Assembly (NCBI GenBank): GCA_963777895.1
Contig: CAVZSF010000003.1
Span: forward strand, 124,989 to 188,988
Direction: 5' to 3'
Source: an uncultured Thermoleophilia bacterium
GTDB taxonomy: Bacteria; Actinomycetota; Thermoleophilia; UBA2241
Length of the DNA: 64,000 nucleotides
Of this stretch, positions 12,637-59,934 are shown in pieces (positions within the stretch are counted from its first letter, which is position 1; every line of letters begins with the position of its first letter). The position numbers were made by a program, and so were the translations under genes. The notes below the pieces were generated by a model. It saw only the letters and a program-made list of their open reading frames with translations, searched no databases and was not told the DNA's origin.

Positions 12637-12739
12637 CGGCGCCTCCACCGCACCTGGGTTGGCGAACACAGGATAGCAGCAGGCACACGAGCCCGAGAGG
12701 CGCGATCCGCCGGAGGCAGACCAGTCAGGTCCCGGTGCG

Positions 12740-12753
12740 TTGACTAAGGTCAA
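12740..12753 (+). promoter_or_regulatory. FNR/CRP-family (Dnr/NnrR-type) binding box TTGACTAAGGTCAA upstream of the qNOR gene
   Basis: Perfect inverted repeat TTGAC-N4-GTCAA about 85 nt upstream of the qNOR ATG, followed by AT-rich TAAATAT at about 12783-12789. Confidence 0.4.
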
Positions 12754-12836
12754 CGCCCCAGTAAACGGCGCTTCCATAGTGTAAATATCCTAGACTGGCC
12801 ACGATCGTGGGGGTCACCGTGCACAAAGGGGGAGTC

Positions 12837-15200: not shown

Positions 15201-15206
15201 CGCCGG

Positions 15207-21398: not shown

Positions 21399-22841
21399 GT
21401 GACAGACACCACCTCGAAAGTCGGCCGGCTGGCCTTTCTGAGCGAGGACGACAAGGGCCGCGTCTACGACGCCGCCCTGACGATCCTCGCCGACATCGGT
21501 ATGCGCGTGCATCACGACGAAGGCCGCGCGATCATGCTCGCGGCGGGCTGCACCCTGGACGACGACAAACGCGTGCACGTGCCCCGAGAGCTCGTCGCTC
21601 GGGCTCGCGAGACGGCGCCGGCGAGCTTCATTCTGCACGACAGGACCGGCGCTCCCGCCTTTACCGTCGGCGGCTACGCGGCCGTCTTCGGAACCGGCTC
21701 TGACCTCATGCATCTCTACGATCTGGAGAGCGGCGAGCGACGGCGCACGTCGCTCGCCGACGTCGCGACGTGCGCCCGTCTCTGCGACGCGCTCGACAAC
21801 ATCGACTTCGTCATGTCGAGCGCGTATCCGCACGAGGTCGAGTCGCACCGCGCGTACCTCGAGGAGTTCCGCGCGATGGTGCTCGGCACGACGAAGCCGC
21901 TCGTCATGACGGCCGAGGGCGGCCGCGACCTCGAGCGCATGTGGGCCGCCGCCTGCGAGCTGCGCGACGGCCCCGAGCAACTCCGCGCCCGACCGTACTT
22001 CGTCGTCTACGACCAGCCGAGCAGTCCGCTGGACCATCCGACGGACAGCGTCGACAAGCTGCTCTTCTGCGCCGACGCCGGCATCCCCGTGATCTACTCC
22101 CCCGCCCCCCTGGCCGGAGGCACCGCGCCGATCACCGTGGCCGGGCACGTGGCGCAAGGCGTCGCCGAGTCGCTTTTCGGGCTCGTGCTGCACCAGCTCC
22201 ACCGGGCGGGATCCCCGTTCCTCACGGGGATGGGCCCGGCCGTCCTCGACATGGCCACCGCCCAGTCCTCCTACAACGCCCCGGAGTACCTGCAGGCCTA
22301 CGCCTGCTTCGTGGAAATGGCGCGCTGGCTGGACCTGCCGAACTGGGGCTACGGCGGCACGACGGACGCGCAGCTCGTCGACGCGCAAGCCGGCATGGAG
22401 ATCGCCGAGCTGACGCTGCTCAGCATGCTGCTCGGCTCCAACCTCAACCACGACGTCGGCTACCTCGACTTCGGCATGACGGGGTCGCTCGAGCAGATCG
22501 TCATCGTCGACGAGTACATCGCCATGAACCGCCGCCTGCTCGGCGGCGTCGAGGTGAGCGACGACACCCTGGCCCTTAACGTCATCGCCGACATCGGTCC
22601 GGGCGGCGACGCGCTCAGCCACCGGCACACTGCCAAGCACCTGCGCACCGCACAGTGGCGGCCACGCATCCTCAACCGCAAGGGCCACGAACGCTGGATC
22701 GAGGACGGCGCGCCGGATCTCCGCGAAGCGGCCCGCCGGCGCGCCCTGCAGGTCCTCGACGCGCACGTCCCGGCGCCGCTCGACGAGCACGCCAGGACGC
22801 GCATCGACGAGATCGTCGAGGGGTTCCAGACAGATGGCTGA
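21399..22841 (+). CDS. MttB-superfamily methyltransferase with no internal amber codon (presumed non-pyrrolysine; quaternary-amine or methylamine:corrinoid methyltransferase family)
   Basis: 480 aa. GGGAGG before GTG. TMA-methyltransferase-family N-terminus (…YDAALTILADIGMRV…) and C-terminus (…DDTLALNVIADIGPGG…HRHTAKH…). No internal stop. Confidence 0.85.
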   Translation: MTDTTSKVGRLAFLSEDDKGRVYDAALTILADIGMRVHHDEGRAIMLAAGCTLDDDKRVHVPRELVARARETAPASFILHDRTGAPAFTVGGYAAVFGTGSDLMHLYDLESGERRRTSLADVATCARLCDALDNIDFVMSSAYPHEVESHRAYLEEFRAMVLGTTKPLVMTAEGGRDLERMWAAACELRDGPEQLRARPYFVVYDQPSSPLDHPTDSVDKLLFCADAGIPVIYSPAPLAGGTAPITVAGHVAQGVAESLFGLVLHQLHRAGSPFLTGMGPAVLDMATAQSSYNAPEYLQAYACFVEMARWLDLPNWGYGGTTDAQLVDAQAGMEIAELTLLSMLLGSNLNHDVGYLDFGMTGSLEQIVIVDEYIAMNRRLLGGVEVSDDTLALNVIADIGPGGDALSHRHTAKHLRTAQWRPRILNRKGHERWIEDGAPDLREAARRRALQVLDAHVPAPLDEHARTRIDEIVEGFQTDG

Positions 22842-37466: not shown

Positions 37467-38300
37467 TCAGGAGCCGGCCGCCGCCACGCCCAGCTGCAGG
37501 ATCTCGCGCGCCTCGTCGGGGGTGGCGCACTCGCGCCCCCACTCCGCGGCGAGGCGCGCCACGCGGCCGGTCAGCTGGGCGTTGCCGTCCGTCAGCACGC
37601 CCTTGTGGTAGTAGATATTGTCCTCGAGCCCGAGGCGCACGTTGCCGCCCAGGGCGAGCGCGGTCATGGTGACCGGCATGTGCCAGCGGCCGATGCCGGT
37701 CGCCGTCCACGTCGAGCCCTCGGGGAGACGGTCGACGAGGAAGGCGACGTTGCGCGGCTCGCCGCTCATACTGCCGGGCACGCCCAGCACGAAGTCCCAG
37801 TGCATGAGCGGGCCGGCCGGACCGAGCTGCTTGACCAGCCGCACGGCGTTATCGATCTGGCCGGCCTCGAAGATCTCGAACTCGGGCCGCACGCCCTTCG
37901 CCTGCATGCGCGTGTAGAACTCCTTCATCAGGGCGGTGTCGTTGAAGAACACCTCGTCGCCGAAGTTGGCCGTGCCGGTCGTCAGCGACGCCACCTCGGG
38001 GTTCAGCTCCAGCGGCTGCAGGCGTTCGTCGGCGGTCATGCCCATGGCCCCGCCGGTCGAGGCCTGGATAATGACGTCGGTCCGCTCGCGGATGGCGGCA
38101 ACTGCGGCCGCGAAAACGTCCCTGTCCTGGGTCGGCGTGCCGTCCGGCCGCCGCACGTGCAGGTGATAGACGCTGGCGCCGGCCTCGCGGCAGCGGGCCG
38201 CGTCCTCGCCGATCTCCTGCGCCGAGATCGGCAGGGCCGGCTGCGCCTCCCTGGTCGTCTCGGCGCCCACGCCCGCGACAGTGATGATGAGCTTGTCCAT
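37467..38300 (-). CDS. kce: BKACE-family beta-keto-acid cleavage enzyme (3-keto-5-aminohexanoate cleavage enzyme Kce-like, DUF849)
   Basis: 277 aa TIM-barrel family signature (MDKLIITVAGVGAETTREAQPALPISAQEI…HLHVRRPDG…, …GLEDNIYY…). Confidence 0.8.
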   Translation of the reverse strand: MDKLIITVAGVGAETTREAQPALPISAQEIGEDAARCREAGASVYHLHVRRPDGTPTQDRDVFAAAVAAIRERTDVIIQASTGGAMGMTADERLQPLELNPEVASLTTGTANFGDEVFFNDTALMKEFYTRMQAKGVRPEFEIFEAGQIDNAVRLVKQLGPAGPLMHWDFVLGVPGSMSGEPRNVAFLVDRLPEGSTWTATGIGRWHMPVTMTALALGGNVRLGLEDNIYYHKGVLTDGNAQLTGRVARLAAEWGRECATPDEAREILQLGVAAAGS

Positions 38301-38315
38301 CGAGCCTCCCCCCGG

Positions 38316-43475: not shown

Positions 43476-45261
43476 TCAGGCCTGCGTCGCGAACCCGAGC
43501 CGGGCGGCGAACTGCGCCTGGAAGTCCTTGTTCGTGGCGAGCTCGAGGAAGGAGATGCGGCGGCGCAGGCGCGCCATGCGACGGCGCGCGAGCACGTCGA
43601 TGAGGGCCATCTGGGCGCCCACCCCGGCGGCGTTGCCCACGAACAGGACGCGGTCCGTGGGCACCGGCGGCAGCAGGTCTATGTACAGCGAGTTGCCCAG
43701 GTCGAGGTAGTTGCCGAAGGCGCCGGCGACGTACACCCGATGCAGGTCGGCCACGCTCACCCCCAGGCTCTCGAGCAGCAGGGTCCAGCCTGTCGCGATC
43801 GCGCCTTTGGCCAACTGCAGGTTGCGCACGTCGTGCTGCGTGAAGACGATCTCGCCGTTGGGACCGCTGGTCAGCAGGTACTCGGACGATCCCGACTCGC
43901 CCTTGCGGACCAGCGGGTGCGACAGCATGCGTCCGCTGCGGTCCACGACGCCGCTGCGCACCAGACCGGCGAGCAGGTCGACCACGCCCGAGCCGCACAT
44001 GCCGAGCGGGGCGCCGTTCCCGATGGTCTGGATGCTCGCGGGGTGGCCGGCGGCATCGATCGTGACCTTCTCGATCGCGCCGGCGACCGCCTTCATGCCG
44101 TGGGTGATCTGGTAGCCCTCGAAGGCGGGGCCCGAGGCGCAGCTCGTCACGGTGACCTCGCCGTCGTGCACGAGGGCGATCTCGGTGTTGGTGCCGATGT
44201 CGATGGCGAGCGACGGGCGGCGGCGCGTCGCGAGCCGCGTCGCGGCGATCACGGCGAGCGCGTCCGAGCCGACGAACCCGGCGATCGGCGGCGGGAAGTA
44301 GACGCCGCCCTCGGGGTTCATGTCGATGCCGAGGTCGGCGCCGCGCACGAGCACCGGCTCGGCTGCAGCCGGCGCGTAGGGCGCGGCGCCGAGCCCCTGG
44401 GCCGGCAGGCCCAGGACCAGATGATGCATCGCCGTGTTGCCGACGACCGTCATGTCGTAGAGGTGCTTCGCCGCGATGCCCTGACGCTGATACAGGGCGG
44501 CCAGGCACTCGTTGACGCCCGACCTGGCCGCCTCCGCCAGCTCCGCGCGGTGCTCGCCCGACTGCGCGATGCGGCTCACGACGTCCTCGCCGTAGCGCAT
44601 CTGGGGGTTCTCCACGGCCTCGGAGTCGACGTGCTCGCCGCGTTCCAGGTCGAACAGGTACGTCACGATCTTCGAGGTGCCGATGTCGACCGCGGCGCCG
44701 TGGGCGACGCCCGCCGCCTCCGGCGCCTCGACATCGATCAGGCGCCGCCCGTACCGCGTGAACGTCGCGCGCCAGCCGTTGCCGCGGAGCACGTCCGGCG
44801 CCTCCCGCAGTGCCTGGTACGGGACCTCGACCCCGTGCAGCACGGCCTGCACGCGCTCGAGGTCGCTGCGGGCGTCGCCGATCACGGGCGGGTCGAGCTG
44901 CTCGGTCACGCGCGTCACCGCCGGATGGGCGGCGCCGTGCCGCAGCCGGCTCGTGGTCAGGATGCGCCTGCGTGCCGCTGGTCTCGCGCACCTCGATGCT
45001 GACACGGGAGGACACCGGCCGCGCCTGACAGGCGAGCCGCCAGCCCGTGGCGCGCAGCTTCTCCGGGACCTTGCGGATCTCGACCTCGGTCGGCTCCGTG
45101 AGCTCGCCGGCCCCGAGGCGCACGAGGCACTTGCCGCACGTGCCCCGTCCGGCGCACACGTTGGGGACGTCGATACCGACCCGCAGGAGGGCGTCCAGCA
45201 AGGTCTCGTCCTGGCCGACCTCGAGGGTCACGCCGATGGGCTCGACGAAGACTTTGGTCAC
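43476..45261 (-). CDS. Corrinoid reductive activase (RamA/RACE family: N-terminal 2Fe-2S ferredoxin domain plus ASKHA ATPase domain), with an apparent frameshift near 44900-45005
   Basis: N-terminal plant-type ferredoxin (MTKVFVEPIGVTLEVGQDETLLDALLRVGIDVPNVCAGRGTCGKCLV…) in one frame. The ASKHA/DUF4445 body (…AAVDIGTSKIV…, …AIDIGTNTEIALV…, …CGSGVVDLLAGL…) is in the adjacent frame (ORF 43476..45005). Confidence 0.7.
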
Positions 45262-45391: not shown

Positions 45392-46690
45392 TCAGTGCGG
45401 CACGTGGAACGGCTCGGTGTGGATGTCCGCCATGAGCGCCTTGCGGTCGGCCACCTTCTGCCAGCGGGCCGCCCACACGTCGCCCAGCACCACGTCCTTG
45501 CTGTCGAAGATGCCCGCGACACCCTTGCGGGGCCCCTTCTCGCATTCCTCGCAGTGACACTCGAAGTGGTAGTCGTCCGGCTCGGTGTACTTGCTGATGA
45601 CGCCCTCGTAGTTGCGCAGGATGATCTCCTTGTCGCCCATGGAGATCAGGTACTGCGGGATCACCGGCGTCTTCCCGCCACCGCCGATGGCGTCGATGAT
45701 GTACATCGGCACGGCGAAGCCGGTGGTGTGGCCGCGGAGGCTCTCGTAGATCTCGATGCCCTTGGCCACCGACGTGCGGAAGTGACCCGTCCCGTTGGCC
45801 AGGTCGCACTGGTAGTAGTAGTAGGGCTTCACGCGGATCTTCACGAGCCCCTGCACCAGCTTCTTCATGACCTTGGCGCAGTCGTTGATGCCGTTCATCA
45901 GCACGCTCTGGTTGCCCAGGTTGATGCCGGCGTCGGCGAGCATGGCGCAGGCGGCGGCGGACTCGGGCGTGATCTCGTTCGGGTGGTTGAAGTGCGTGTT
46001 GAAGTACAGCGGGTGGTACTTCTTGAGCATCTCGCAGAGCTCGGGCGTGATGCGCTGCGGGCACACCACCGGCATCCTCGAGCCGAGGCGCACGATCTCG
46101 ACGTGATCGATGGCCCGCACGCGCTGCAGGATCCACTCGAGCTTGTCGTCGGAGAGCGTCAGGGGGTCGCCGCCCGAGATCAGCACGTCGCGGACTTCCT
46201 TGTTACGCTCGATGTACGTGAAGGCGGCCTCGTAGTCCTCGTTCGACGCGGCGCCTTCGGACTCGCCCACGATGCGGCGCCGCGTGCAGTGGCGGCAGTA
46301 CATGGAGCACATCTCGGTCACGAGGAAGAGCACGCGATCCGGGTAGCGGTGCGTGATGAGCGGCGTGGGGGAGTCGATCGTCTCGGCGATCGCATCCTCC
46401 ATGTCGGCCTCGCCGACGATCAGCTCCGCCGTCGTCGGCACGGCCTGCCAGCGCACGGGGTCGTTCTTGTCGTCGGGGTCGATGAGCGAGCAGTAGTAGG
46501 GCGTTGCCGCGACGCGGAACTTGCCCATGCATGCCTGCAGGTCCTTGCGGTCCTGATCGTCCAGATGGAGGACCTGCTCGAAGTCCTCGACCGTGCTGAG
46601 ACGGTGCCGGACCTGCCAGCGCCAGTCGTTCCACTGCTCGTCGGTCACGTCTTTGAAGAGCGGTATGTCGCGGAAGTGTCGAGCCATCAA
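45392..46690 (-). CDS. kamA: Lysine 2,3-aminomutase (radical SAM, KamA family)
   Basis: 432 aa. CSMYCRHCTRRR radical-SAM cluster motif plus KamA-specific flanks (…RYPDRVLFLVTEMC…, …GGDPLTLSD…, …PYYYYQCD…). Strong AAGGAG RBS. Confidence 0.9.
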   Translation of the reverse strand: MMARHFRDIPLFKDVTDEQWNDWRWQVRHRLSTVEDFEQVLHLDDQDRKDLQACMGKFRVAATPYYCSLIDPDDKNDPVRWQAVPTTAELIVGEADMEDAIAETIDSPTPLITHRYPDRVLFLVTEMCSMYCRHCTRRRIVGESEGAASNEDYEAAFTYIERNKEVRDVLISGGDPLTLSDDKLEWILQRVRAIDHVEIVRLGSRMPVVCPQRITPELCEMLKKYHPLYFNTHFNHPNEITPESAAACAMLADAGINLGNQSVLMNGINDCAKVMKKLVQGLVKIRVKPYYYYQCDLANGTGHFRTSVAKGIEIYESLRGHTTGFAVPMYIIDAIGGGGKTPVIPQYLISMGDKEIILRNYEGVISKYTEPDDYHFECHCEECEKGPRKGVAGIFDSKDVVLGDVWAARWQKVADRKALMADIHTEPFHVPH

Positions 46691-46804: not shown

Positions 46805-48263
46805 TTACAGACCGGCGGTCGCGATGATCCGCTGCAGGATGGCCGCACGCTCGTCGTCGAGCGGTTCCACCTCGTGCTTCGCGAGCAGCTCGGCGGCGAG
46901 GCCGGCCGCGTTGTCGGCCGCGTCGCGGCGGCCGCCCGCGACCCACGCCTCCCAGGGGGAGCGGTCAAGCAGGCGGGGGCGCCACACGTCCTTCATGTGC
47001 TGCCGCGTGTGGCGCTGTCCGAGGAAGTTCCCACAGATGTCGACCTGCTTGATGGCCTCGAGGGCCAGGGTCTCGTCGTCCACGGTGATGCCCTGCGCGA
47101 TCGTCGCCGACCAGGAGAAGAGCTCCGTGTCGGCCACGAGTTGAGCCTGCGAGTAGACGCGGCCGCCGGCAAGCGCGCCCGCGCCGCAGGCAAGGGGCAC
47201 GCCGGCAAGGGCGGCCGTGAGCGCGGCGAACGAGCCGTCGGTGGAGGCCTCCCAGTCGACGGTCTCGGCGTCGGTGCGCAGCACGTCCGCGACGGCCGGC
47301 AGCCCGGCGCGGGCGGCGAGCTGCGCGGCGGCCAGCGTGAAGAGCTGGGCGGCCGCGCCGGTCGCCGCGACGCCGGCGAGCGCCGGCCGCACGGGCACGA
47401 AGAACGCGGCTCCCGGCGCGAGCGCCTGCAGGGCGGCGTTGGCAGCCAGGGCGCGCGCGAAAAAGGACACGATGGCGGCGGTCAGGTCTGGGCCGCCGGT
47501 GACGCCGAAGGCCGGGCATGCCTGCGGAGCGGGCGCGGCCGGTACGCCGACCGGCAGGCCGGCCGCCGCGAACACGCCCGCGGCGGCGAAGGCGCCCGGT
47601 CCGGCGAACAGGGAGAGTGGCGGCCTCGCGCGCCGCTCGTCCGTCGGCGTCCCGAAGAGCCGTGGCCATGGCCACGGCGGCCTCCGCCTCCTCGACCGCG
47701 GCCGGCGTCGTGAGCAGGACATGCTTCGTCGTGGAGCCCACGGCGATCTCGATCTCGGTCAGCAGCCGCAGGCCGCGCTCGACGTCGAGCGCGCGCAACG
47801 GCGGCCCGGCGACGACGGCGACCTCGGGGAGAGCGTCGGCGAGCCGCACGGCCGCTTCGAGCTGCCCCGCGGTCGCCCGGACCGGCTGGTCCGCACCGGC
47901 GGGGAGCGCCTCCGGCGCCGGCTCGCCGCCGGCGGCCAGCAGACACGCACCGGCCGCGAGGACGACGTCCTGGGCCGCCGCGCGGGCACCCAGCAGGAAC
48001 TCCTTGGGCGCCCGCGCGGCGGCCTCTTCGGCCAGCCCACGCGGCACGGCCAGGGCGCCGGTGTCGGTGACGCGTGCGCCTGCGCCGGCCAGCGCCTCAC
48101 GCGCGCGCACGTCCGGAACGGTCACGCCCTCGGTCTCGAGCAGTGTCAGCGCGGCATCGTAGAGAAGCTCCGCGTCTTCTTGCGCGAGCACGCGCAGGGC
48201 GACGTCCGTCCGCCACGTCAGTGGGGGTCGGGGTGTGTCGATGGTGGGGGTTGTCCCGGTCAC
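46805..48263 (-). CDS. Divergent Ala-rich MttB-superfamily methyltransferase homolog, with an apparent frameshift near 47600-47720
   Basis: The N-terminal part (GGAGG-N8-GTG at 48263; …ALRVLAQEDAELLYDAALTLLETEGVTV…) is in the frame of ORF 46965..48311. The C-terminal part (…ETLALEAIKQVDICGNFLGQRHTRQHMKDVWRPRLLDRSPWEAWV…PLDDERAAILQRI…) is in ORF 46805..47722. Confidence 0.6.
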
Positions 48264-48438: not shown

Positions 48439-49560
48439 ATGAGGATCGAAGTCGACTGCGAACGTATCCGCGCCAACGCCGAAGCGGTGACGAAGCTCTG
48501 TGCACGACACGGCATCGAGGTCGCCGGCGTCACGAAGTGCTGCTGCGGCGAACCCGAGATCGGCCAAGCCATGCTCGCCGGCGGCTGCACGATGCTCGCG
48601 GATTCGCGCCTCGACAACGTCGCGCGCCTGCGCGCGGCCGGCATCGAGGCGCCCATCCTCCTGCTGCGCCTGCCGGCGATCAGCGAAGCCGCCCAGGTGG
48701 TCGAGCTCTGCGACATGAGCCTGAACAGCGAGGTCGACACGGTGAGGGCCCTGTCGGCCGCCGCCGTCGCGCGGGGCGTGGTCCACCAGGTCCTGTTCAT
48801 GGTCGACACCGGCGACCGCCGCGAGGGCGTCATGCCGGAGGAGGCCGGCGCAGCCTGCCGGCAGATCATGGATCTGCCGGGCATCGACCTCGCCGGCCTC
48901 GGCACCAGCCTCAACTGCCTCTGCGGCGTCATGCCGACCCCTGAGAACCAGCAGGAGTTCGCCGACATCGTCGAGCGGGTCGAAGCCGAGTTGGGCGTGA
49001 CCTTCCGTCTCGTGTCGGGCGGTCACACCGCCAACCTCCACCTCGTGCAGTCCGGCCAGGTGCCGGCGCGCTTCAACCACTTCCGCGTCGGCGAAGGCAT
49101 CCTCACCGGCACCGATTTCTCGACATGGGCTGAGCTGCCTATGCCGTACACCGACGCCTTCAAGGTCTACGCCGAGGTGATCGAGCTCAAGGACAAGCCC
49201 TCGGCGCCGGACGGCACCTGCGGCCCCGACGCCTTCATGGAGGTCCATGAGTGGCCCGACCTCGGCATCCGGCGTCGCGCCATCGTCGCGCTCGGCGAGA
49301 TCGACCTGCGCACCTCGAGCCTCAGGCCCATGCGCCCCGGGGTCACGGTGGTAGGAGCCTCCTCCGATCACCTCGTGCTCGACGTGACCGAGGCCGATCC
49401 CCCGGTCACACTGGGCGAGGAGCTCGGCTTCGACACGGTCTACCCGGCGGTCTCGACCTGCTGGTCCGGGTCGTGCTCGATGAAGGTGGTGCATCCCCTC
49501 ACGGCAGCGGCAGTCGTAAGAGCGGGCCGCTCCGATCTCTGCATAAGGTCGCAGCAGAGT
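48439..49560 (+). CDS. Alanine-racemase-fold PLP protein (putative amino-acid racemase, YhfX/ornithine-racemase-like). 3' end uncertain.
   Basis: GAGGAGG RBS. The N-terminal region (…GIEVAGVTKCCCGEPEIGQAMLAGGCTMLADSRL…) and overall layout resemble YhfX-like racemases. The listed frame has no stop before it overlaps the convergent MttB gene, so a frameshift or uncertain end lies near 49500-49560. Confidence 0.55.
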
Positions 49561-49562
49561 GT

Positions 49563-49599
49563 GACGGGGCGGGCGGCACCTGGTGCCGCCCGCCCCGTC
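49563..49599. terminator. 18-bp GC hairpin between convergent genes (bidirectional terminator)
   Basis: GACGGGGCGGGCGGCACC-T-GGTGCCGCCCGCCCCGTC. Confidence 0.5.
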
Positions 49600-49624
49600 T
49601 CGAGCATTCCGTCCTGCGCCACTG

Positions 49625-51081
49625 TCAGCTGCCGGCGAGCTCCCTGTCGGCGCGCGTCACGATGGCGCGCAGCTCCGCGGTCACGTCTTCCGGGAGCGGC
49701 TGCGGCTCGTAGGTCGCAAGGATCTCGTCGGCCATCTCCGTCGCCTTCTCGAGGGCGCCCTTCTTGCCCTCGCGCAGCCACACGTCGTACGGCGTGCGGT
49801 CCCAGACGGTCGGCCGCCAGATCTCCTTCATGTGCTGACGGGTGTGTCTCTCGGCCAGATACGTCCCGTTGGGGCCGACCCGCTTGATCACGTCCAGCGC
49901 CAGCGTTTCGTCGTCGACCTGCACCCCGCCGGCGACCTTCTGCACGATGCCGTAGATCTCGGTCTCCATGATCATGTGCGGGTAGCTCAGGATCTTCGAC
50001 CCGTTGAGCAGGCCGCAGCCGTTCATCATGTCGGCACACGTCATCACGCTCGCGAAGGTGCTCAGGGAGTCGTCGATGGCGGCCTGCCAGTCGGGCTCCT
50101 TGGCGCCGGTGGCCATGGTGCCCATCGCCATCGGGATGCCGTAGAAATGGGCGAGCTGGGTGGAGGCGGCGGCGAGCAGGTAGTCCTCGGGCGAGCCGCC
50201 CGTGTAGCCGCCGGTCTTGAGGTCGATCACGCTCGGGGCGCCGGCGAAGAAGCAGGGTACGCCCGGGAAGGCGAGCTGCAGCATGACGACGCCGCTGAGG
50301 GCCTCGGCGTTCTGGACGACGAGGTTGCCCGCGATCGTGGCCGGCCCCGTGCCGGCGCTGAGCGGCATCGGCATGAAGCCGCTCGCGAGGCCGTGCTCGG
50401 CGGCGACAAGGTTGGCCTCGAGGTTGGGGCCGTCGTGCGCGAGCGGGTCCACGGCGCACTGCATGAAGCTGACGATCGGGCGGCGGCGCAGCTCGTCGGT
50501 CCCGCCGACGATCGCCGCCGCCATCTCAACGAGGTAGCGCGCCGCCTTCTCGCCGACCGTCGTCACCGCCTGGTAGTGCTTGCTCGTGTTGGTGAGCACG
50601 GCCTCAGAGTCGTGGAGCGCCTTGCTCGCGGGCGGCACATCCTGCGACGTGACGACCGGCCCCCAGTAGTAGCTGACGGCCGGGAGCGCGTCGACGAAGC
50701 GGGCGGAGGTGGCGGCGTCGGCCTTGGTCGAGGGCCGCTTCTCGCCGGTGTGGTGGTCGTAGACGAACACGCCGGAGCCGTCGTTCGAGAGGTAACAGTG
50801 GCGCCGGTCGATGAGCATGTCGGCGGCCGCGTCGCGGCCGGCGAGCACGTACTCCTCCGGCGCCTGCTTGACCGCCTCCATGACGACGGCGCGCGGGAAG
50901 CGGACGACCTGCGTCGCCCTGTCGACCGCGCAGCCGCCCTTCTCGAGGACGTCCAGGGCGCGTGCGCTCGGGAAGCGCACGCCCGTCTCCTCCATCACCT
51001 CGAGCGTGGCTTCGTGGATGCGTTCGAGCTCGGACGGCGAGAGCACGTCCCAGCGGAGCTTCGGTTCGATGGGGTTGATCC
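49625..51081 (-). CDS. MttB-superfamily methyltransferase with no internal amber codon (presumed non-pyrrolysine), tandem copy B
   Basis: Start MTARINPIEPKLRWDVLSPSELERIHEATLEVMEETGV… (GAGG before ATG). C-terminal …DDETLALDVIKRVGPNGTYLAERHTRQHM…PLPEDVTAELRAIV. Confidence 0.85.
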
Positions 51082-51126
51082 TTGCAGTCATCTGGACCTC
51101 ACGATGGGTACTTGTCTGGGACGTTC

Positions 51127-52540
51127 TCAGGCGGTCGGGCGGGACGCCTCCACCTCGGCGAGGATGCGGTCGAGTCCGGCCTTCACCTCGTCGCCCAGCT
51201 CGAAGGCGCGCGGCTCGGCGCGAAGCGCCGCCACGCGCGCCCGCAGGCGGTCGACCAGGGTCGGACGACCCTTCCTCCACCCAGTGGGCGTGGCGCGAGG
51301 TGTCGAAGAGGTCGCTCTGCCAGATCCCGCGGAAGTGCTTGCGCGTGTACGGCCGGGCCAGGTGGCTGCCGCCCGGCCCCACCGCCGCGATCTCTTCGAG
51401 GGCGAGCGCGTCGTCGTCGACCGGCAGCGGCGCCATGAACGCCTTGGCGTACCCGATGAGCTCGTTGCCGAAGAGGATCGACTCGTAGCTGCTCTGCAGC
51501 CCTGCCTCGAGGTAGCCCACGTCGTGGAGCAGCGTCGCCCGCGAGAGCAGGCCGGTGACGGCGGTGATCGCGGCCTCGGCGCTCCACTGCCCGTCGAGCG
51601 ACTTGCTGTCGCTGTGCGCGGCGTAGCTGAAGCTCGGCAGGTCGTACCAGCGGGCGAGGTCGGTCTGCGCCTGATAGCCCTGGATCGGGCCGGCGGACGC
51701 GTACACCTCGTTCATCGTGCGCATGTTCATGGCGCCGACGCCGACACCCCACACGAAGGGAGCGCCGGGCTTGACCGCCTGGCTCAGCACGAGGCCCGCC
51801 AGGGTCTCGGCGTTGGCGACCACGATGACGGCCGCGATGCTGGCCGGCGCCGTCGTGCCCGCGTTCGGCGCCGGCGCCCAGATCAGCGGGATGTCGAGCT
51901 CGGCGCACGCCATGACCTTGCTGGCGCCGTCCTCGTCGAACATGAGCGGCGGCACGGGCATGGCGTAGATGCCGAAGCTGCCCGCCTCTCCAGCCAGGGC
52001 GCACATCTCCTTCATCCGGCCCAGGATGTGGCCGTCGCGCGGCGCCACCAGGAGCGGCTTGCGCGTGCCGCGCACCATGGCGTCCACCTGCGCCAGGTCG
52101 TCGATCGCCTGGGGCACGTCCTCCGGCAGTCCCATGCTCATCACGAAGTCGATGTTAGGCAGCTTCTCGCAGAGCGCCGCCTGGCCCTCGACGTCGGCCT
52201 TCACGACGCGGCGGCGCTCACGCGTGTCGGGGTCGCAGATATAGAGCACGTCGGAGCCGGTGCCGCAGTAGGTATGACGGGCGTCCAGCACGAGCGGCTC
52301 GGTCGTGCCGCCGCGCGGCTTCAGCTGACAGCCCCGCGACGCGCTCTTGAGGGCCGCCTCGACGAGGTCGGCCGGGATGCGCACGCGTGTCCCGTCGACG
52401 CGCGCGCCGGCGCGCGCGAAGGTCTCGACCGCCGGCGCATAGCGCACCTCGATGCCCGTCTCGGCGAGCACCTGCAGGGTGGCCTCGTGCGCCCGGCGAC
52501 AGGCGTCGTCGCCCCAGATGGTCAGGCGAGCTTCGTTCAC
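51127..52540 (-). CDS. MttB-superfamily methyltransferase with no internal amber codon (presumed non-pyrrolysine), tandem copy A. Apparent one-base insertion in the GGG run at 51269-51271.
   Basis: MNEARLTIWGDDACRRAHEATLQVLAETGIEV… through …DDALALEEIAAVGPGGSHLARPYTRKHF…HAHWVEEG, then a frame change to …RPTLVDRLRARVAALRAEPRAFELGDEVKAGLDRILAEVEA*, a plausible family C-terminus. In the unshifted frame the ORF reads through into copy B. Confidence 0.75.
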
Positions 52541-52819
52541 CGTGCACCTCCTCCAGTGTGGGCGACCCCGCCGTCGCTGACGCGGCGAGGTTCACCTCAG
52601 GATCGTCGGATCGAAAACAGCGGCGGGCCGCCGGCCGCCGGCGCGCTGCGCCGGCCGCGGCGGCCTTAGTGGCCGAACGTGAAGTAGATGTGACTGACCG
52701 TCCCCCGGCTCACGGGGCGACTCTAGCACGGAAGCTTGGGCGAAGTTCGCGCGTGCGACGCCGAGGCCTTTACGCCGCACGCCCCTCGGCCATAGCCTCT
52801 GCTGCGCAGACCGAAGGGA

Positions 52820-54316
52820 GTGCCGATGAAGCGCAACCTGCACGCCGGCCACCCGCGGAGGGGTGGCCTCAGCCTCAACGTCTTCACCGAGGCAGAGCTC
52901 GACGACATCCACCTCGCGTCCCTCGAGGTGCTGGAGCGCACCGGGATGTGGGTCGAGGACGACGAGGCGCTCGCCATCTTCGCGGACGGCGGCTGCCGCG
53001 TGGACCGCGAGAGCCGGATGGTCCGGATCCCGCCGCACGTCGTCGAGGACGCGATACGCAGCGCGCCACCGCTCTTCGTGCTCGCCGGGCGCGACCCGGC
53101 CAACGACATCGTGCTCGAGCCCAGCCGCGTGTCGTTCTGCAACTTCGACGAAGGCATCATGGTCAACGACCTGCGCAGCGGCGAGCATCGCGAGCCCACT
53201 CTGAGCGACATCGCCGAGTTCGCCCGCCTGGTGGACGCGCTGCCGCACATCGACTGCTACGAGCCCGCCGCGGGACCGTCCGACGTGCCGCACGAGACAG
53301 CGGTCCTGCACGGCACCGAGGCCGCCCTGCACAACTGCACGAAGTGCGTCGGCACCGAGGCCATTTCGGCGTGGGAGGTCCGCAAGGTCCTCGAGATGGC
53401 GGTCGCCGTCATGGGTAGCGAAGATGCCCTCCGCGAACGGCCGATCGTAGGCTTCGGCTGCTGCCCCGTGAGCCCGCTGAAGCTGCCGCACGACGCCACC
53501 GAGGTGATCGTCGAGACGGCACGCCGGGGCATCCCCTGCGGCGTGCTCTCGATGGCGATGTCCGGCGGGTCTTCCCCCGTAACGCTGGACGGCACGCTCG
53601 TGCTGCACAACGCGGAGGTCCTTGCCGGCATCACACTCTCGCAGCTCACAGAACGGGGCGCCCCGGTCGACTACGGGACCTCGACCACGGCCATGGACAT
53701 GAAGCTGGCGGCGGCGAGTGTCGGGTCGCCGGAGCTGGCCCTGTTCAGCGCCGCCGTGGCGCAGATGGCGCGACGGTACCTGATCCCGAGCTTCGTGGCG
53801 GGGTTGTAGGCGGATTCGAAGCTCGGTGACGCGCAGACCGGTCACGAGAAGACCCTCACCGGCCTGATGGCTGCGTTGGCAGGGGCCAACCAGATCTACG
53901 GGGCGGGGATGATCGAGTCGGGCGTCACCTTCGACGGAGCGCAGCTCGTTATGGACGACGAGATCGCCGGGATGATCAAGCACTGTGTCATGGGCATTTC
54001 TGTGAGCGACCCCACCATGGCGGTGGAGGACATCGCCGAGGTCGGACCGTTCGGGGACTTCTTGAGCCTGGACGCGACACTGCGGCACATGCGGGCACTC
54101 AGCCAGCCGGCGCTGCTCGACCGTCGCGTGCGCGAGGACTGGGAGGAGCGCGGCGCCAGCGACCTGTACGCGAGGGCGCAGGCGAAGGCCCTCGAGATCG
54201 TCGAGGGCCACAAGCCCGCGCCGCTCGACCCCGACGCGGCGCGGCAGATCCGCGCCATCGTCGAGACCGCCGACCGTGAACGCGGCGTGGTCGCCCCGCC
54301 CGTCCAGTACACCTAG
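52820..54316 (+). CDS. mttB: Trimethylamine methyltransferase MttB of the pyrrolysine type, with an in-frame amber codon (TAG 53807-53809) at the position expected for pyrrolysine
   Basis: GGGAG RBS. Continuous frame over 498 codons, interrupted only by TAG at codon ~330. Flanking sequence …LSMAMSGGSSPVTLDGTLVLHNAEVLAGITLSQLT…[70 protein letters not shown]… closely matches archaeal and bacterial Pyl-containing MttB around Pyl334 (495-aa M. barkeri protein), as far as I can recall without an alignment. The gene also terminates with TAG. Confidence 0.75.
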
Positions 54317-54419
54317 AAGGGGCAGGCGTCCGGGTGACGCACGGGCGGGCACACGTCGACACGCGGGCGATGGGTTGCTCGCCGATCCGACGCCATTGCG
54401 CGCGAAGGCTCGAGCGGTC

Positions 54420-54475
54420 CAGAACGGCGACGGGGCGGACGGCGCTGATGCGCCGCCCGCCCCGTCGCCGTTCTG
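54420..54475. terminator. Long GC hairpin between convergent mttB and the ABC ATPase gene
   Basis: CAGAACGGCGACGGGGCGG…CCGCCCGCCCCGTCGCCGTTCTG with a ~14-nt loop. Confidence 0.5.
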
Positions 54476-57992: not shown

Positions 57993-59384
57993 CTACGAGC
58001 GCGAGCGTACGTGCAACGCTATGAAGATATGCAGGCGAGCCGCTTGAAGTTCGTGATCGACGGCGGCGGGCAGTCGCGGGGGCTGGTGGGTGGCGAGGAT
58101 CGCCGCGACGCGGGCGTGCGCCGCGGCGACAGAGGACCCGCCTGCGCGCCTGGGACCTCGCAACGGCGGGCCGGCGACCGGCGCCGCAGGCGCCGCGGGC
58201 CGGCCCAGCCCCGTGAGATCGAGGCCCGCCACCACCTCGCGCGCCTGCGTCAGCGCGTCGGCCGCCAGGGCCATCTCCTCGTAGCTGAAGATGCGGCCAC
58301 CGGAGACCATGCCGACACCAGTGAGCATGTCGACGCCGGCCACGACCGAGAGGAAGGTCGTCGTCGTGTCGTCGAGGGCCGACTGCCAGGACGGCGCCTT
58401 CGCCCCGGATGAGTTCACCCCGCACTGCGTCGGCAGGCCGTAGAAGCGGCCGATCTGGCCGACGGCGGCGGCCATGAGGGTGTCTTCCGGGGCGCCGCCC
58501 GTGAAGTCGCCCGTCTTCAGGTCCATGACGCTCGGGATGAAGCAGATGAAGACCGGGGCGCCGGGCACGGCGGCCTCGATGACGGCGACCGCGCTGAGCG
58601 CCTCGGCGATGCCGACCACGAGAGAGCCGGCCATGGTGATCGGCGTGGTCGAGCCGCCCATCGGCATGGTGACGAAGCCGATGGGCACGCCGGCCGCCGC
58701 GAACTCGAGACCGGCCTCGAGGGTGCCGGCGTCGTTCCCCAGTGGTGTGACCGTTCCGAGCAGCGCCGAGATAGGCGGCTCCCTGCGCAGCCGCTCTTCG
58801 TCGCCCTCGCAGAGCGCCAGCGCCATCGCCACCGCCGTGCGCGCCATCCCGGGCTCGACGACCGTGACGGTCTGCACGTGCTTGCCGGTGTTGGCCAGAG
58901 CGAGGTAGAGCTCGTGCAGGCCGCGCACCTCCGCCGGCCTGTCCTGCGCGCTGACCGCCGGCCAGCAGAAGTCGATCTCCGGCATCGCGTCCACGACCCG
59001 CGCGATCGCCGCGACGTCCTCCGCGGTCGTGCTCCGCTTTCCGCCATCAGTGACGTCGTAGATCTCGACGCAGCAGCCGTCGCTGGTCATGAGCGAGCGA
59101 TGGCCGGTCTCGAGAGGCGCCGCCGCGCGCGCGCCGAGCGTGAACCGCGGCGGCGCAAGGCCGACCAGACGCCGCACCAGCTCGGCCGGCAACCAGACCC
59201 GCTGCTCTTCGGCCTTCGCCCCCTGCGCCACGAGCGCCGCCCGGGCACGTTCAGAGGGGATGAAGACGCCGACCTCGGCAAGCACCTCGAGGGCGGCCTC
59301 GTCGAGCCGCCGCAGATCGTCGCCCGTGAAGAGCGGCGCGGGCACGGCCGTGCCCGCCTTGTGTCCCTGGGTCGTCATCGCCAC
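57993..59384 (-). CDS. Divergent MttB-superfamily homolog with a shortened, low-complexity C-terminal region
   Basis: MTTQGHKAGTAVPAPLFTGDDLRRLDEAALEVLAEVGVFIP… and …VTMPMGGSTTPITMAGSLVVGIAEALSAVAVIEAAVPGAPV…. The C-terminus lacks about 35-80 residues of the canonical VGPGG…HT region and contains PAAPAAPVAGPP. Confidence 0.6.
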   Translation of the reverse strand: MAMTTQGHKAGTAVPAPLFTGDDLRRLDEAALEVLAEVGVFIPSERARAALVAQGAKAEEQRVWLPAELVRRLVGLAPPRFTLGARAAAPLETGHRSLMTSDGCCVEIYDVTDGGKRSTTAEDVAAIARVVDAMPEIDFCWPAVSAQDRPAEVRGLHELYLALANTGKHVQTVTVVEPGMARTAVAMALALCEGDEERLRREPPISALLGTVTPLGNDAGTLEAGLEFAAAGVPIGFVTMPMGGSTTPITMAGSLVVGIAEALSAVAVIEAAVPGAPVFICFIPSVMDLKTGDFTGGAPEDTLMAAAVGQIGRFYGLPTQCGVNSSGAKAPSWQSALDDTTTTFLSVVAGVDMLTGVGMVSGGRIFSYEEMALAADALTQAREVVAGLDLTGLGRPAAPAAPVAGPPLRGPRRAGGSSVAAAHARVAAILATHQPPRLPAAVDHELQAARLHIFIALHVRSRS

Positions 59385-59427
59385 CGTCCGCCTGTCGTCT
59401 GGCGGGGCCTGGTCGCCCCGGCCCCGC

Positions 59428-59934
59428 TCACCAGTCCCGCTTCGCGATCTCGACCACCAGCGGTCGCACGACCTCCCGCAGGTCGGCCGCGCGGATCTTG
59501 AGCATCGTGGTCGTGTCGCCGCCGCCACAGTAGACGACGGACGGCACGAACGCATCCGGGTCGGCGACGCAAGGGATGTCCTGGGCCAGGGCGCAGGGAG
59601 GCACGGCGCCGACGCGGTAACCGGTCGTCTCCAGCACCTGCTGGCCCTTCGCGAGAGCCGCGCGCTCGGCGCCAAGGCGTTGCGCAAGCAGCGCGGTGTC
59701 CACGGCGAGGTGCCCCGGAACGAGAACGAGATACGGCGCGTCGTCGACGAGGAACACCAGCGACTTGACCACGTCGGACTCGGGGACACCGAGCTGCGCC
59801 GCGGCCCGCGCGACGGTCGACGACCGCGCGGGCAGATGCAGGATCTCGTGGGCGACGCCGAGACCGAGCAGGTAGTTGTGGACGTCGCTGGAGGACAGCA
59901 TGAGCACCTCCCGGGAGCCGCCGAAGTCTAGCAC
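59428..59934 (-). CDS. YbaK/ProX-family aminoacyl-tRNA deacylase domain protein
   Basis: …VKSLVFLVDDAPYLVLVPGHLAVD… plus …GAVPPCAL… and a C-terminal …VYCGGG…. The start may be the internal Met at 59901. Confidence 0.65.
   Translation of the reverse strand: MLDFGGSREVLMLSSSDVHNYLLGLGVAHEILHLPARSSTVARAAAQLGVPESDVVKSLVFLVDDAPYLVLVPGHLAVDTALLAQRLGAERAALAKGQQVLETTGYRVGAVPPCALAQDIPCVADPDAFVPSVVYCGGGDTTTMLKIRAADLREVVRPLVVEIAKRDW

What the first reader, a model, noticed from the sequence alone, without database searches (positions are those of the whole stretch)
52820..54316. Pyrrolysine-type mttB with an in-frame amber codon in a high-GC, actinobacterial-like genome
A 498-codon trimethylamine methyltransferase (MttB) frame is unbroken except for one TAG at codon ~330 (53807-53809). 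Conserved MttB sequence continues on both sides in the same frame. The interruption falls at the position, and in the local context (…[23 protein letters not shown]…), that corresponds to Pyl334 of archaeal MttB.

The other apparent gene lesions in this window are one-base indels. A clean in-frame UAG at the single canonical Pyl site is therefore much more consistent with a genuine pyrrolysine codon than with random decay. Pyl-decoding systems are rare and largely confined to methanogens, Firmicutes and Deltaproteobacteria. A Pyl-type mttB embedded at host-like GC content in this lineage would imply either an undescribed Pyl-utilising clade or a long-resident relic of one.

TAG is also used as a normal stop nearby (7715-7717, 11317-11319, and this gene's own terminator 54314-54316). 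If the codon is decoded, readthrough must be context-dependent or inducible.
Basis: partly seen in the sequence, partly recalled or inferred. Interest (0 to 1): 0.9.

Follow-up and report, generated by a model that had tools for sequence, protein, structure and literature searches.

The report
Genuine pyrrolysine mttB in soil Thermoleophilia
The gene is an intact trimethylamine methyltransferase whose single in-frame UAG sits at the pyrrolysine position, in a soil actinobacterial lineage (Thermoleophilia) that carries the full pyrrolysine machinery; it is real but extends a known system rather than revealing a new one.

Summary
The frame 52826-54316 (+) is a complete MttB with one in-frame TAG at 53807-53809. 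That TAG aligns exactly with Pyl334 of the solved M. barkeri MttB.

It is not decay or a sequencing error:
- TAG is present in 21 of 21 homologous loci, from Thermoleophilia MAGs and from metagenome contigs of other lineages.
- dN/dS is the same after the TAG as before it, about 0.2-0.35.
- The 15 codons right after the TAG are the most conserved in the protein and lie upstream of any restart codon.

The window has no pyl genes. High-GC relatives do carry a syntenic pylSc, corrinoid protein, pylSn, pylT(CUA), pylD, pylC and pylB locus. One such locus lies in the same metagenome assembly as a 99.1%-identical twin of the window. Same-genome linkage is not proven.

Pyl in Actinobacteria is already on record: two PylRS genomes, and Stordalen MAGs expressing Pyl-type mttB. 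This is therefore a new member of a known kind.

Three side points:
- The clade replaces the "invariant" Gly110 with Asp or Ser.
- A small conserved hairpin lies 66 nt after the UAG.
- The Rfam PYLIS hit reflects sequence conservation, not structure.

The parts
52826..54316 (+). mttB coding sequence: 496 codons plus stop, with codon 328 = UAG (pyrrolysine). GTG 52820 is an alternative start.
   Evidence: Gene callers on the twin contig start at the ATG. GC3 is 0.91-0.93, like the neighbouring genes.
52814..52820 (+). Shine-Dalgarno-like AAGGGAG, 5 nt before ATG 52826.
   Evidence: Read directly from the sequence. Function is inferred.
53807..53809 (+). In-frame UAG at the pyrrolysine position, equivalent to Pyl334 of M. 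barkeri MttB.
   Evidence: One search aligns it with X334 of 7xcl_A. TAG is present in 21/21 homologous loci.
53810..53866 (+). Codons immediately after the UAG ([19 protein letters not shown]). This is the most conserved stretch of the protein and lies upstream of the first possible restart ATG at 53867.
   Evidence: the non-synonymous difference is 0.013 for codons 331-345, against 0.19 gene-wide. This stretch can only be translated by reading through the UAG.
53807..53906 (+). Match to Rfam PYLIS_3 (RF02510), starting at the UAG.
   Evidence: 61.3 bits against a gathering score of 38. Most model base pairs are non-canonical here, so the match reflects conserved coding sequence, not structure.
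53875..53890 (+). Candidate conserved RNA hairpin GUUGGC-AGGG-GCCAAC, starting 66 nt after the UAG.
   Evidence: 97.9% of cells are paired across 16 distinct sequences. There are two compensatory pairs, but both come from one lineage (L014). The hairpin is built on the rare codons TTG (4.1% of Leu) and GCA (4.4% of Ala). Tentative.
54314..54337 (+). The gene's own UAG terminator (54314-54316), with an in-frame TGA backup seven codons later (54335-54337).
54420..54475 (.). 26-bp inverted repeat (96% complementary, 4-nt loop) between convergent mttB and the ABC ATPase gene. It resembles a terminator and has no T-run.
43476..45261 (-). RACo/RamA-type corrinoid reductive activase, with an assembly frameshift near 45000. 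A likely accessory of the methyltransferase systems encoded here.
   Evidence: It is intact at 594 aa on the twin contig.
49625..52540 (-). Two tandem non-Pyl MttB-family paralogues read as one 971-aa ORF. The first has His and the second Ala at the Pyl position.
   Evidence: The same 971-aa call appears on the twin contig. The genes are separate in relative L003.
46805..48262 (-). Non-Pyl MttB-family paralogue, frameshifted near 47720 in the window.
   Evidence: Intact at 485 aa on the twin contig.
57993..59390 (-). Non-Pyl MttB-family paralogue, with its C-terminus frameshifted in the window.
   Evidence: Intact at 452 aa on the twin contig.
21399..22841 (+). Further non-Pyl MttB-family paralogue, flanked by 4Fe-4S proteins.

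Best explanation
This is a functional pyrrolysine-dependent methylamine methyltransferase gene, most likely a trimethylamine:corrinoid methyltransferase (MttB). The organism is an uncultured soil Thermoleophilia bacterium (Actinomycetota).

Proposed mechanism:
- The ribosome reads UAG 53807-53809 as pyrrolysine, using an amber-decoding tRNA-Pyl.
- That tRNA is charged by a split PylSn/PylSc synthetase with pyrrolysine made by PylB, PylC and PylD.
- These genes lie elsewhere in the genome, in a chromosomal neighbourhood that is conserved across the clade.
- Decoding competes with release factor 1, as in other Pyl organisms, because UAG is still an ordinary stop in this genome.
- The full-length protein of about 53 kDa uses the Pyl side chain to activate the methylamine.
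- It passes a methyl group to a cognate corrinoid protein, which in relatives is encoded beside pylSc or directly after mttB.
- The RACo/RamA-type activase in the window keeps that corrinoid protein reduced.

Shown here: gene identity, the exact Pyl position, clade-wide conservation of the TAG, purifying selection past the TAG, and complete pyl loci in the lineage and in the same metagenome.

Inferred: that this genome itself carries the pyl locus, the substrate, and how readthrough is regulated.
For: Gene identity and position of the TAG:
- MTTB Pfam match on both halves.
- TIGR02369 equivalog at 665.9 bits against a cutoff of 525.
- TAG aligned to X334 (Pyl) of 7xcl_A.
- Met249 and Tyr364 equivalents are kept.

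Conservation:
- 82 of the top 120 homologue clusters stop after the same residue, at 68-100% identity.
- TAG is present in 21/21 loci, including Desulfobacterales and low-GC contigs.
- dN/dS is 0.18-0.35 before the TAG and 0.21-0.35 after it.
- Codons 331-345, before any restart codon, are the most conserved in the protein.
- The same TAG appears in three assemblies of this population.

Other Pyl genes in a relative: contig L005 has two TAG-mttB genes, a TAG-mtbB and an adjacent corrinoid protein.

Pyl machinery in the lineage:
- About 90 metagenome contigs with 65-75% GC encode a full-length PylSc.
- L099 carries pylB, pylC, pylD, pylT and pylSc, all above the equivalog cutoffs.
- A conserved pylSc-side block (BacA, amidase, pylSc, corrinoid protein) is present in all eight loci from seven assemblies of the same ENA series as the Thermoleophilia MAGs. 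The pylSn, pylT and pylDCB part was seen in five to six of them; L138 and L144 show no pylT or pylD.
- One such locus (L143, ERZ25039545 contig_101007) is in the same metagenome assembly as the window's 99.1%-identical twin contig.
- A second (L140) is in the same assembly as the TAG-mttB of L004.

Composition: the gene's GC and GC3 match the host.
Against: - No pylT, pylS or pylBCD in the 64-kb window, nor within 10 kb of mttB in 16 related loci.
- The ENA accession is a sample-level assembly. One such accession holds two different syntenic pylS loci (L138 and L145). The pyl locus found there is therefore not proven to belong to this genome.
- Tetranucleotide composition does not single it out.
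- No cognate corrinoid gene lies next to this mttB.
- The clade has Asp or Ser where M. barkeri has Gly110. Li et al. 2023 (PMC9842639) report Gly110 as 100% conserved in 66 Pyl-MttBs. The substrate or the chemistry could therefore differ from canonical MttB.
- UAG ends 22% of the window's genes, so unregulated suppression would be costly.
- No protein-level evidence exists.
Confidence: 0.85

Rival explanations
1. Relic in this particular genome. The lineage once used pyrrolysine, but this organism has lost the pyl genes. The gene would then be terminated at UAG and be on its way to decay.
For: The pyl genes are absent from the window and from the flanks of mttB. Linkage of contig_101007 to this genome is unproven. 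A look-up of a window-specific protein found no record.
Against: The gene has no second lesion. The post-TAG part is open for 168 codons and is as constrained as the pre-TAG part against ten relatives. The protein's N-terminal 327 residues are identical in another assembly at 99.1% DNA identity. A complete Thermoleophilia-type pyl locus is present in the same metagenome. The frameshifts elsewhere in the window are assembly-specific errors.
Confidence: 0.07
2. Sequencing or assembly error: the true codon is a sense codon.
For: The assembly has one-base indel errors.
Against: Those errors are indels, not substitutions. The TAG is identical in three assemblies of the population and in all 21 homologous loci from many samples.
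Confidence: 0.01
3. Split gene. UAG terminates, and the C-terminal part is made separately from ATG 53867, as automatic gene callers annotate it (327 aa plus 149 aa).
For: Gene callers produce exactly this pair on every contig.
Against: The 19 codons between the UAG and the ATG would not be translated, yet they are the most conserved in the protein. They contain the segment that flanks Pyl in the solved structure. A split at this point would leave the protein without the pyrrolysine residue, which lies above the barrel with its side chain directed into the active-site cavity (PMC9842639).
Confidence: 0.02
4. UAG is read through, but as a canonical amino acid, by a suppressor or near-cognate tRNA and not by tRNA-Pyl.
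For: The closest full-length, non-Pyl homologues (50-57% identity) have Leu, Trp or Val at this position. A canonical residue is therefore tolerated in the fold.
Against: The lineage maintains pylT(CUA), both synthetase subunits and the three biosynthetic genes under equivalog-level conservation. Relatives also carry a TAG at the canonical Pyl site of mtbB. No other amber suppressor tRNA was seen.
Confidence: 0.03

Closest known systems
Methanosarcina barkeri MttB (Pyl334; PDB 7XCL/7XCM/7XCN; Li et al. 2023, PMC9842639)
   Same: Same family and length. 44% identity over 488 residues. UAG is at the identical alignment column. The Met249 and Tyr364 equivalents and the LSMAMSGGSSP and GHEKT motifs are kept.
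   Different: The host is bacterial with 70% GC. Gly110-Thr111, whose cis-peptide carbonyl holds the water bound to Pyl, is Asp-Glu here. Across the clade the first position is Asp or Ser. No mttC lies adjacent to this gene. The methyl group presumably goes to tetrahydrofolate rather than coenzyme M (inference).
Bacterial Pyl systems of Bacillota and Desulfobacterota (Desulfitobacterium hafniense, Acetohalobium arabaticum, Bilophila): split pylSn plus pylSc with pylBCD and pylT
   Same: The architecture matches: a split synthetase (PylSn about 109 aa, PylSc 280-291 aa) plus pylB, pylC, pylD and a tRNA-Pyl with a CUA anticodon. PylSc is 50-57% identical to D. hafniense PylSc. UAG remains a normal stop, as I recall for Pyl-using bacteria (for this window).
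   Different: In the high-GC contigs that share this synteny, from the same assembly series as the Thermoleophilia MAGs, the pyl genes are not next to mttB. pylSc sits after the cell-wall genes BacA and an amidase. It is separated from pylSn, pylT and pylDCB by a corrinoid protein, a radical SAM gene and others. The pylSc-side block is present in all eight loci from seven assemblies; the pylT/pylDCB part was seen in five to six. This points to long vertical residence.
Actinobacteriota MAGs with Pyl-type mttB/mtbB from Stordalen Mire (Ellenbogen et al. 2023, PMC10805028), and the two Actinobacteria with PylRS in Guo et al. 2022 (PMC9630628)
   Same: Same phylum and the same signature of an amber-truncated mttB. 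The Stordalen genes were reported as expressed.
   Different: Those reports note the truncation or the synthetase only in passing. In the passages I searched I did not see the pyl locus organisation, TAG conservation or selection analysis, or the active-site substitution that are shown here. Whether the Stordalen MAGs belong to the same class was not tested.
Non-Pyl MttB-superfamily methyltransferases (e.g. MtgB glycine betaine methyltransferase; PDB 2QNE, 9YCE)
   Same: Same fold family. Six such paralogues surround this gene in the window. The nearest full-length homologues are 50-57% identical.
   Different: They have a sense codon at the Pyl position: Leu, Trp or Val in the database homologues, His or Ala in the window paralogues. 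By the literature they act on quaternary amines, not on trimethylamine.

Membership tests
Pyl-dependent trimethylamine methyltransferase MttB (TIGR02369 / PF06253) | Full-length sequence match above the curated equivalog cutoff | tested here: met
   TIGR02369 at 665.9 bits against 525. PF06253 on both halves. 7xcl_A at E = 3.7e-112.
Pyl-dependent trimethylamine methyltransferase MttB (TIGR02369 / PF06253) | A single in-frame UAG at the column of Pyl334 | tested here: met
   The TAG aligns to X334 of 7xcl_A and is conserved in 21/21 loci.
Pyl-dependent trimethylamine methyltransferase MttB (TIGR02369 / PF06253) | Active-site residues reported as invariant or important: Tyr364 and Met249 | tested here: met
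   ANQIYGAG and LSMAMSGG are conserved in the window and the clade. Their roles are taken from PMC9842639.
Pyl-dependent trimethylamine methyltransferase MttB (TIGR02369 / PF06253) | Gly110 (Gly110-Thr111 cis peptide), reported as 100% conserved in 66 Pyl-MttBs | tested here: not met
   The window has Asp-Glu (NFDEG). Across the clade, 64 clusters have Asp and 18 have Ser, out of 82. The nearest non-Pyl homologues keep Gly. The contact is through the main chain, so the consequence is unknown.
Pyl-dependent trimethylamine methyltransferase MttB (TIGR02369 / PF06253) | A cognate corrinoid protein (MttC) and a reductive activase | tested here: inconclusive
   A RACo-type activase lies at 43476-45261, but it is below the RamA cutoff. 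The window has no corrinoid protein. Relatives have one after mttB (L005) or beside pylSc (TIGR02370).
Pyl-dependent trimethylamine methyltransferase MttB (TIGR02369 / PF06253) | Trimethylamine:corrinoid methyl transfer activity | not testable with these tools
   Requires a biochemical assay.
Pyrrolysine genetic-code expansion system (pylT, pylS, pylB, pylC, pylD) | tRNA-Pyl with a CUA anticodon in the same genome | tested here: inconclusive
   None in the window. Present at L143 17466-17538 in the same metagenome assembly, and in ten other high-GC loci. Genome linkage is unproven.
Pyrrolysine genetic-code expansion system (pylT, pylS, pylB, pylC, pylD) | PylS (Sn plus Sc) and PylB, PylC, PylD in the same genome | tested here: inconclusive
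   None in the window. All are present above the equivalog cutoffs on L143 (same assembly), except pylB, which on L143 is a 201-bit fragment (cutoff 348.2) fused to pylC by a frameshift. L139 and L099 carry all of them above the cutoffs.
Pyrrolysine genetic-code expansion system (pylT, pylS, pylB, pylC, pylD) | Pyrrolysine actually incorporated at the UAG | not testable with these tools
   Requires mass spectrometry. The indirect support is purifying selection on the codons after the UAG.
PYLIS recoding element (Rfam RF02510) | Match above the gathering score | tested here: met
   61.3 bits against 38, starting at the UAG.
PYLIS recoding element (Rfam RF02510) | A conserved secondary structure supported by base pairing or covariation | tested here: not met
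   Most model pairs are non-canonical in this sequence. The fold z-score is -1.14. Only a different, 6-bp hairpin is conserved, and its covariation comes from a single lineage.
Pseudogene | Relaxed selection, additional lesions, or a lesion not shared by relatives | tested here: not met
   dN/dS is 0.21-0.35 downstream. There is one stop only. The stop is shared by 21/21 loci.

The most novel reading that the evidence does not exclude
Thermoleophilia, an abundant class of soil Actinomycetota, may be a major and essentially uncharacterised reservoir of vertically inherited pyrrolysine decoding. Its pyl locus is embedded among housekeeping genes. It holds several Pyl enzymes (mttB, mtbB) with a variant active site in which Asp or Ser replaces the 'invariant' Gly110. 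A conserved mRNA hairpin downstream of the UAG might tune readthrough. The host also encodes a haem-copper oxidase. If so, Pyl-dependent methylamine demethylation would be widespread in ordinary, at least partly oxic, soils, and would work through a chemically distinct MttB variant.
Probability: 0.3. Interest if true: 0.65.

Novelty: new member of a known kind. Interest (0 to 1): 0.45.

Why it matters
Gene callers split every one of these genes into 327-aa and roughly 140-aa fragments. Methylamine metabolism in soil Actinomycetota is therefore systematically mis-annotated and under-counted.

The data show that pyrrolysine decoding is not a rare curiosity in this phylum. At least 82 MttB clusters and at least 120 PylSc clusters belong to high-GC lineages from soils, peat and sediments. 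The clade's pyl locus has conserved synteny, which points to long vertical inheritance.

This bears on who consumes trimethylamine and dimethylamine, both methanogenesis precursors, in soils. It also offers new high-GC PylRS/tRNA-Pyl pairs and a natural variant of the MttB active site.

It does not change what is known about how pyrrolysine works.

Tried and rejected
(1) pylT in the window. ARAGORN, Rfam and a 3-mismatch search with the clade's pylT sequence found nothing.

(2) pyl genes in the window. NCBIfam or Pfam scans of the candidate ORFs selected by a third-position GC filter (at least 70 aa), plus tblastn with PylS sequences, found no pyl genes.

(3) pyl genes near mttB in relatives. 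ARAGORN and tblastn on 10-kb flanks of 16 related mttB loci found none, so the pyl genes are not adjacent to mttB in this clade.

(4) Protein search with D. hafniense PylSc. It returned only Bacillota in the top 120. This was solved by a DNA pattern for LRPMLAPNLY back-translated with G/C third positions.

(5) Linking pyl contig_101007 to the window's genome.
- Tetranucleotide distance did not discriminate.
- No repeats are shared.
- A look-up of a window-specific protein found no record.
- Divergence from other lineages is similar at both loci, about 74-78%. That is compatible with a shared genome but weak.
- I first read ERZ accessions as MAGs. I rejected this because ERZ25039527 holds two different syntenic pylS loci.

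(6) The Rfam PYLIS_3 hit as evidence for a recoding structure. Rejected, because it is sequence-driven.

(7) The supplement of Guo et al. 2022, to identify their two Actinobacteria. It is not held.

(8) A sigma-70 promoter scan upstream of mttB found nothing. This is expected for this phylum.
Full report
**1. The observation**

The + strand frame from 52820 (GTG) or 52826 (ATG) to 54316 is open except for one TAG at 53807-53809. The ATG is the likelier start. An AAGGGAG motif at 52814-52820 lies 5 nt upstream of it, and gene callers on a twin contig chose it.

Both halves match Pfam MTTB: profile positions 25-334, then 341-497. With a placeholder residue at the TAG, the protein scores 665.9 bits on the NCBIfam equivalog model TIGR02369, against a cutoff of 525.

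A search of PDB sequences aligns the TAG with residue X334 of M. barkeri MttB, chain 7xcl_A. That residue is the pyrrolysine. Overall identity to that protein is 44% over 488 residues.

**2. Source and quality of the sequence**

The N-terminal 327-aa product is identical to one encoded on ENA ERZ25039545 contig_53806 (326 kb) and on a Logan contig. The window is 99.09% identical to that ENA contig over 21 kb, with 17 gaps.

Related loci in species-representative genomes are titled "uncultured Thermoleophilia bacterium MFD...". I take these to be the Microflora Danica long-read soil MAGs.

The window's frameshifts are assembly-specific:
- The RACo gene and two MttB paralogues are broken in the window but intact in the ENA contig.
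- MoeA is intact in the window and broken in the ENA contig.

These lesions are assembly indels, not decay.

**3. Error and decay are excluded**

- Of the 120 best database clusters, 82 are called as about 327 aa, with 68-100% identity. Nearly all end in SFVAGL.
- In 11 loci with a clean frame, TAG is the only interruption, and the frame then stays open to codon 489-496.
- Counting frameshifted assemblies, a second paralogue, and Desulfobacterales and low-GC contigs, TAG occupies this codon in 21 of 21 loci.
- Against ten relatives, dN/dS is 0.18-0.35 upstream of the TAG and 0.21-0.35 downstream. Synonymous divergence is 0.3-0.75.
- Codons 331-345, just after the TAG and before the first possible restart ATG at 53867, are the most conserved in the protein. 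Their non-synonymous difference is 0.013, against 0.19 overall.

Only translation through the UAG explains that last point. It also rules out the "two fragments" annotation that gene callers produce.

**4. The pyrrolysine machinery**

The window contains no pyl gene:
- Its only tRNAs are Asp and Val.
- None of the candidate ORFs selected by a third-position GC filter matches PylS, PylB, PylC or PylD.
- tblastn with PylS sequences found nothing.
- Ten-kb flanks of 16 related mttB loci also lack these genes.

I then scanned metagenome contigs for the PylS motif LRPMLAPNLY, written with G/C third positions.
- About 90 of the 120 resulting loci have 65-75% GC and encode a full-length PylSc, 50-57% identical to the D. 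hafniense enzyme.
- Five of them also carry a tRNA-Pyl with a CUA anticodon.
- L099 carries pylB, pylC, pylD, pylT and pylSc, all above the equivalog cutoffs.

A protein search with one such PylSc gave 120 clusters at 71-95% identity. One carries the NCBI name pyrrolysine--tRNA(Pyl) ligase large subunit [Actinobacteria bacterium].

Eight long contigs from seven assemblies of the same ENA series as the Thermoleophilia MAGs share a pylSc-side block. The fullest loci read as follows (for pylT and family assignments):
gltX, a decarboxylase, TldD/PmbA, an HTH protein, OsmC, BacA, an amidase, pylSc, a Pyl-type corrinoid protein, a radical SAM gene, pylSn, pylT, pylD, pylC, pylB, a nitroreductase, ThiS, a ferredoxin and AFOR.

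The pylSn, pylT and pylDCB part was seen in five to six of the eight loci. L138 and L144 show no pylT or pylD.

Two of these contigs link to mttB-bearing assemblies:
- L143 is ERZ25039545 contig_101007, in the same assembly as the window's twin contig.
- L140 is in the same assembly as the TAG-mttB of L004.

**5. Limits of that link**

ERZ accessions are sample-level assemblies, not MAGs. ERZ25039527 holds two different versions of the syntenic pylS block. Co-occurrence in one assembly therefore does not prove a shared genome.

- Tetranucleotide distance did not single out L143.
- No repeats are shared.
- A look-up of a window-specific protein found no record.
- L143 and the window are each about 74-78% identical to all other sampled lineages at their respective loci. 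That is compatible with one genome, but weak.

I put the chance that this organism carries the system at about 0.85-0.9. This rests mainly on the selection evidence and on clade-wide co-occurrence.

**6. Mechanism**

The following is inferred from the families involved. Pyl-tRNA(CUA) competes with release factor 1 at UAG 53807-53809. The full-length enzyme uses the Pyl imine to bind and activate the methylamine, then methylates a corrinoid protein. A RACo/RamA-type activase (43476-45261) re-reduces that protein. The methyl group is presumably passed on to tetrahydrofolate.

Context in the window and in relatives:
- The window is an island of methylated-amine genes. It has six MttB-family genes, five without Pyl, an amino-acid-type ABC importer, and several EamA transporters.
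- This mttB appears monocistronic. A 285-nt intergenic region lies upstream and a 26-bp inverted repeat downstream.
- Relative L005 has two TAG-mttB genes, a TAG-mtbB and a corrinoid gene directly after mttB.

UAG ends 9 of 41 genes in the window, so suppression must be partial or regulated. That was not tested here. The gene's own UAG stop is backed by a TGA seven codons on.

**7. PYLIS and mRNA context**

Rfam PYLIS_3 matches 53807-53906 at 61.3 bits, against a gathering score of 38. The model has few pairs, and most are non-canonical here. The region's folding energy is unremarkable, with z = -1.14. The hit reflects conserved coding sequence, not structure.

Synonymous variation is nevertheless about halved for some 75 codons after the UAG: 0.16 against 0.28, ranking 20th of 456 windows.

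A 6-bp hairpin, GUUGGC-AGGG-GCCAAC at 53875-53890, is paired in 97.9% of cells across 16 distinct sequences. It is built on the rare codons TTG and GCA, each about 4% of its family. Both compensatory changes come from one lineage, so I treat this as a lead only.

**8. Departure from the canonical enzyme**

Li et al. 2023 (PMC9842639) report Gly110 and Tyr364 as 100% conserved among 66 Pyl-MttBs. Here Tyr364 and Met249 are kept. Gly110-Thr111 is Asp-Glu. Across the clade, position 110 is Asp in 64 clusters and Ser in 18. The nearest non-Pyl homologues keep Gly.

The contact in the structure is through the main-chain carbonyl, so the effect is unknown. This lowers confidence that trimethylamine is the substrate. 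It does not lower confidence that Pyl is used.

**9. Comparison with what is known, and verdict**

Pyl in Actinobacteria is already recorded:
- Guo et al. 2022 count two Actinobacteria among 81 bacterial PylRS genomes.
- Ellenbogen et al. 2023 report Actinobacteriota MAGs expressing Pyl-type mttB and mtbB.

The finding is therefore a correct call of a real pyrrolysine gene. It is a new member of a known kind, not an undescribed system.

In the passages of those papers that I searched, the following were not described:
- The size of the high-GC clade.
- The conserved pyl locus synteny.
- The selection analysis around the TAG.
- The Gly110 substitution.
- The candidate hairpin.

Interest is moderate.

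Noticed in passing
window 43476-45261, 46805-48262, 57993-59789, 12807-15226; L001 18033-18557: One-base frameshifts break RACo, two MttB paralogues and a COX1-like gene in the window. RACo and the MttB paralogues are intact on the 99.1%-identical ENA contig. That contig instead has a broken MoeA, which is intact in the window. The lesions are assembly-specific indel errors, typical of long-read assemblies, and not pseudogenes.
   Followed up: partly
window 49625-52540 (-): Two tandem non-Pyl MttB paralogues are read as one 971-aa ORF, because the first runs out of frame near its C-terminus and through the spacer. The same 971-aa call appears on the independent ENA contig, but the genes are separate in relative L003. 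This is either a real fusion or frameshift in this species, or a systematic homopolymer error.
   Followed up: partly
window 53130-53150 (protein NFDEG, residues 106-110): The Thermoleophilia TAG-mttB clade has Asp (64 clusters) or Ser (18) at the position of M. barkeri Gly110. That residue is reported as invariant in Pyl-MttBs and holds the water bound to the Pyl imine. The nearest non-Pyl homologues keep Gly.
   Followed up: partly
window 53810-54030 and 53875-53890: Synonymous variation is about halved for roughly 75 codons after the UAG. A 6-bp hairpin built from rare TTG and GCA codons is conserved in all high-GC sequences and is compensated in a Desulfobacterales homologue.
   Followed up: partly
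window 38316-39584 then 37467-38300 (-); 29267-29917 then 28109-29257 (-): Two genes that end in TAG are followed, in the same frame and with no intervening stop, by the next gene (5-codon and 3-codon spacers). Amber readthrough would fuse them. This is probably coincidence, with a chance of about 1 in 3 each.
   Followed up: no
L138-L145 (e.g. L139 7965-18172; L143 7969-20785): On these high-GC contigs the pyl genes sit in a housekeeping neighbourhood whose pylSc-side block (BacA, amidase, pylSc, corrinoid protein) is shared by all eight loci. A Pyl-type corrinoid protein, a SAM-dependent methyltransferase and an HpnJ-like radical SAM gene lie between pylSc and pylSn. A nitroreductase/BluB-like gene and ThiS follow pylB. 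The roles of these inserted genes are unknown.
   Followed up: partly
L005 1166-2554 (-), 4002-5483 (-), 10001-12095 (+): A related high-GC contig (MttB 72% identical to the window's) carries three amber-containing genes: two mttB and one mtbB, the latter with TAG at codon 345. A corrinoid protein gene lies directly after one mttB. Its left end is syntenic with pylS-bearing metagenome contigs.
   Followed up: partly
one search hits P0009-P0044 etc.: The closest full-length homologues of this Pyl-type MttB (50-57% identity, closer than the archaeal enzyme at 44%) have Leu, Trp or Val at the Pyl position. Pyl and non-Pyl forms are therefore near neighbours in this part of the family.
   Followed up: no
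window 37467-39584, 45392-46690, 11407-12777, 48439-49887: Genes of lysine and ornithine metabolism are interleaved with the methyltransferase genes: lysine 2,3-aminomutase AblA, 3-keto-5-aminohexanoate cleavage enzyme, an aminomutase-like aminotransferase, ornithine cyclodeaminase, and an alanine-racemase-fold protein. Any connection to the methyltransferases, or to the supply of lysine for Pyl synthesis, is unknown.
   Followed up: no
window 12807-15226 and 8700-9974: A haem-copper oxidase subunit I-like gene (frameshifted in this assembly) and a flavorubredoxin lie in the same window. The host may therefore respire or tolerate oxygen. I would not expect that in a host of an oxygen-sensitive corrinoid/Pyl pathway.
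   Followed up: no
window 52618-52640 (-): A GC-rich stem followed by a T-run, resembling a terminator, lies on the minus strand in the leader of the divergently transcribed MttB paralogue pair. It could be an attenuator or chance: 2 sites were found against 0.4 expected.
   Followed up: no
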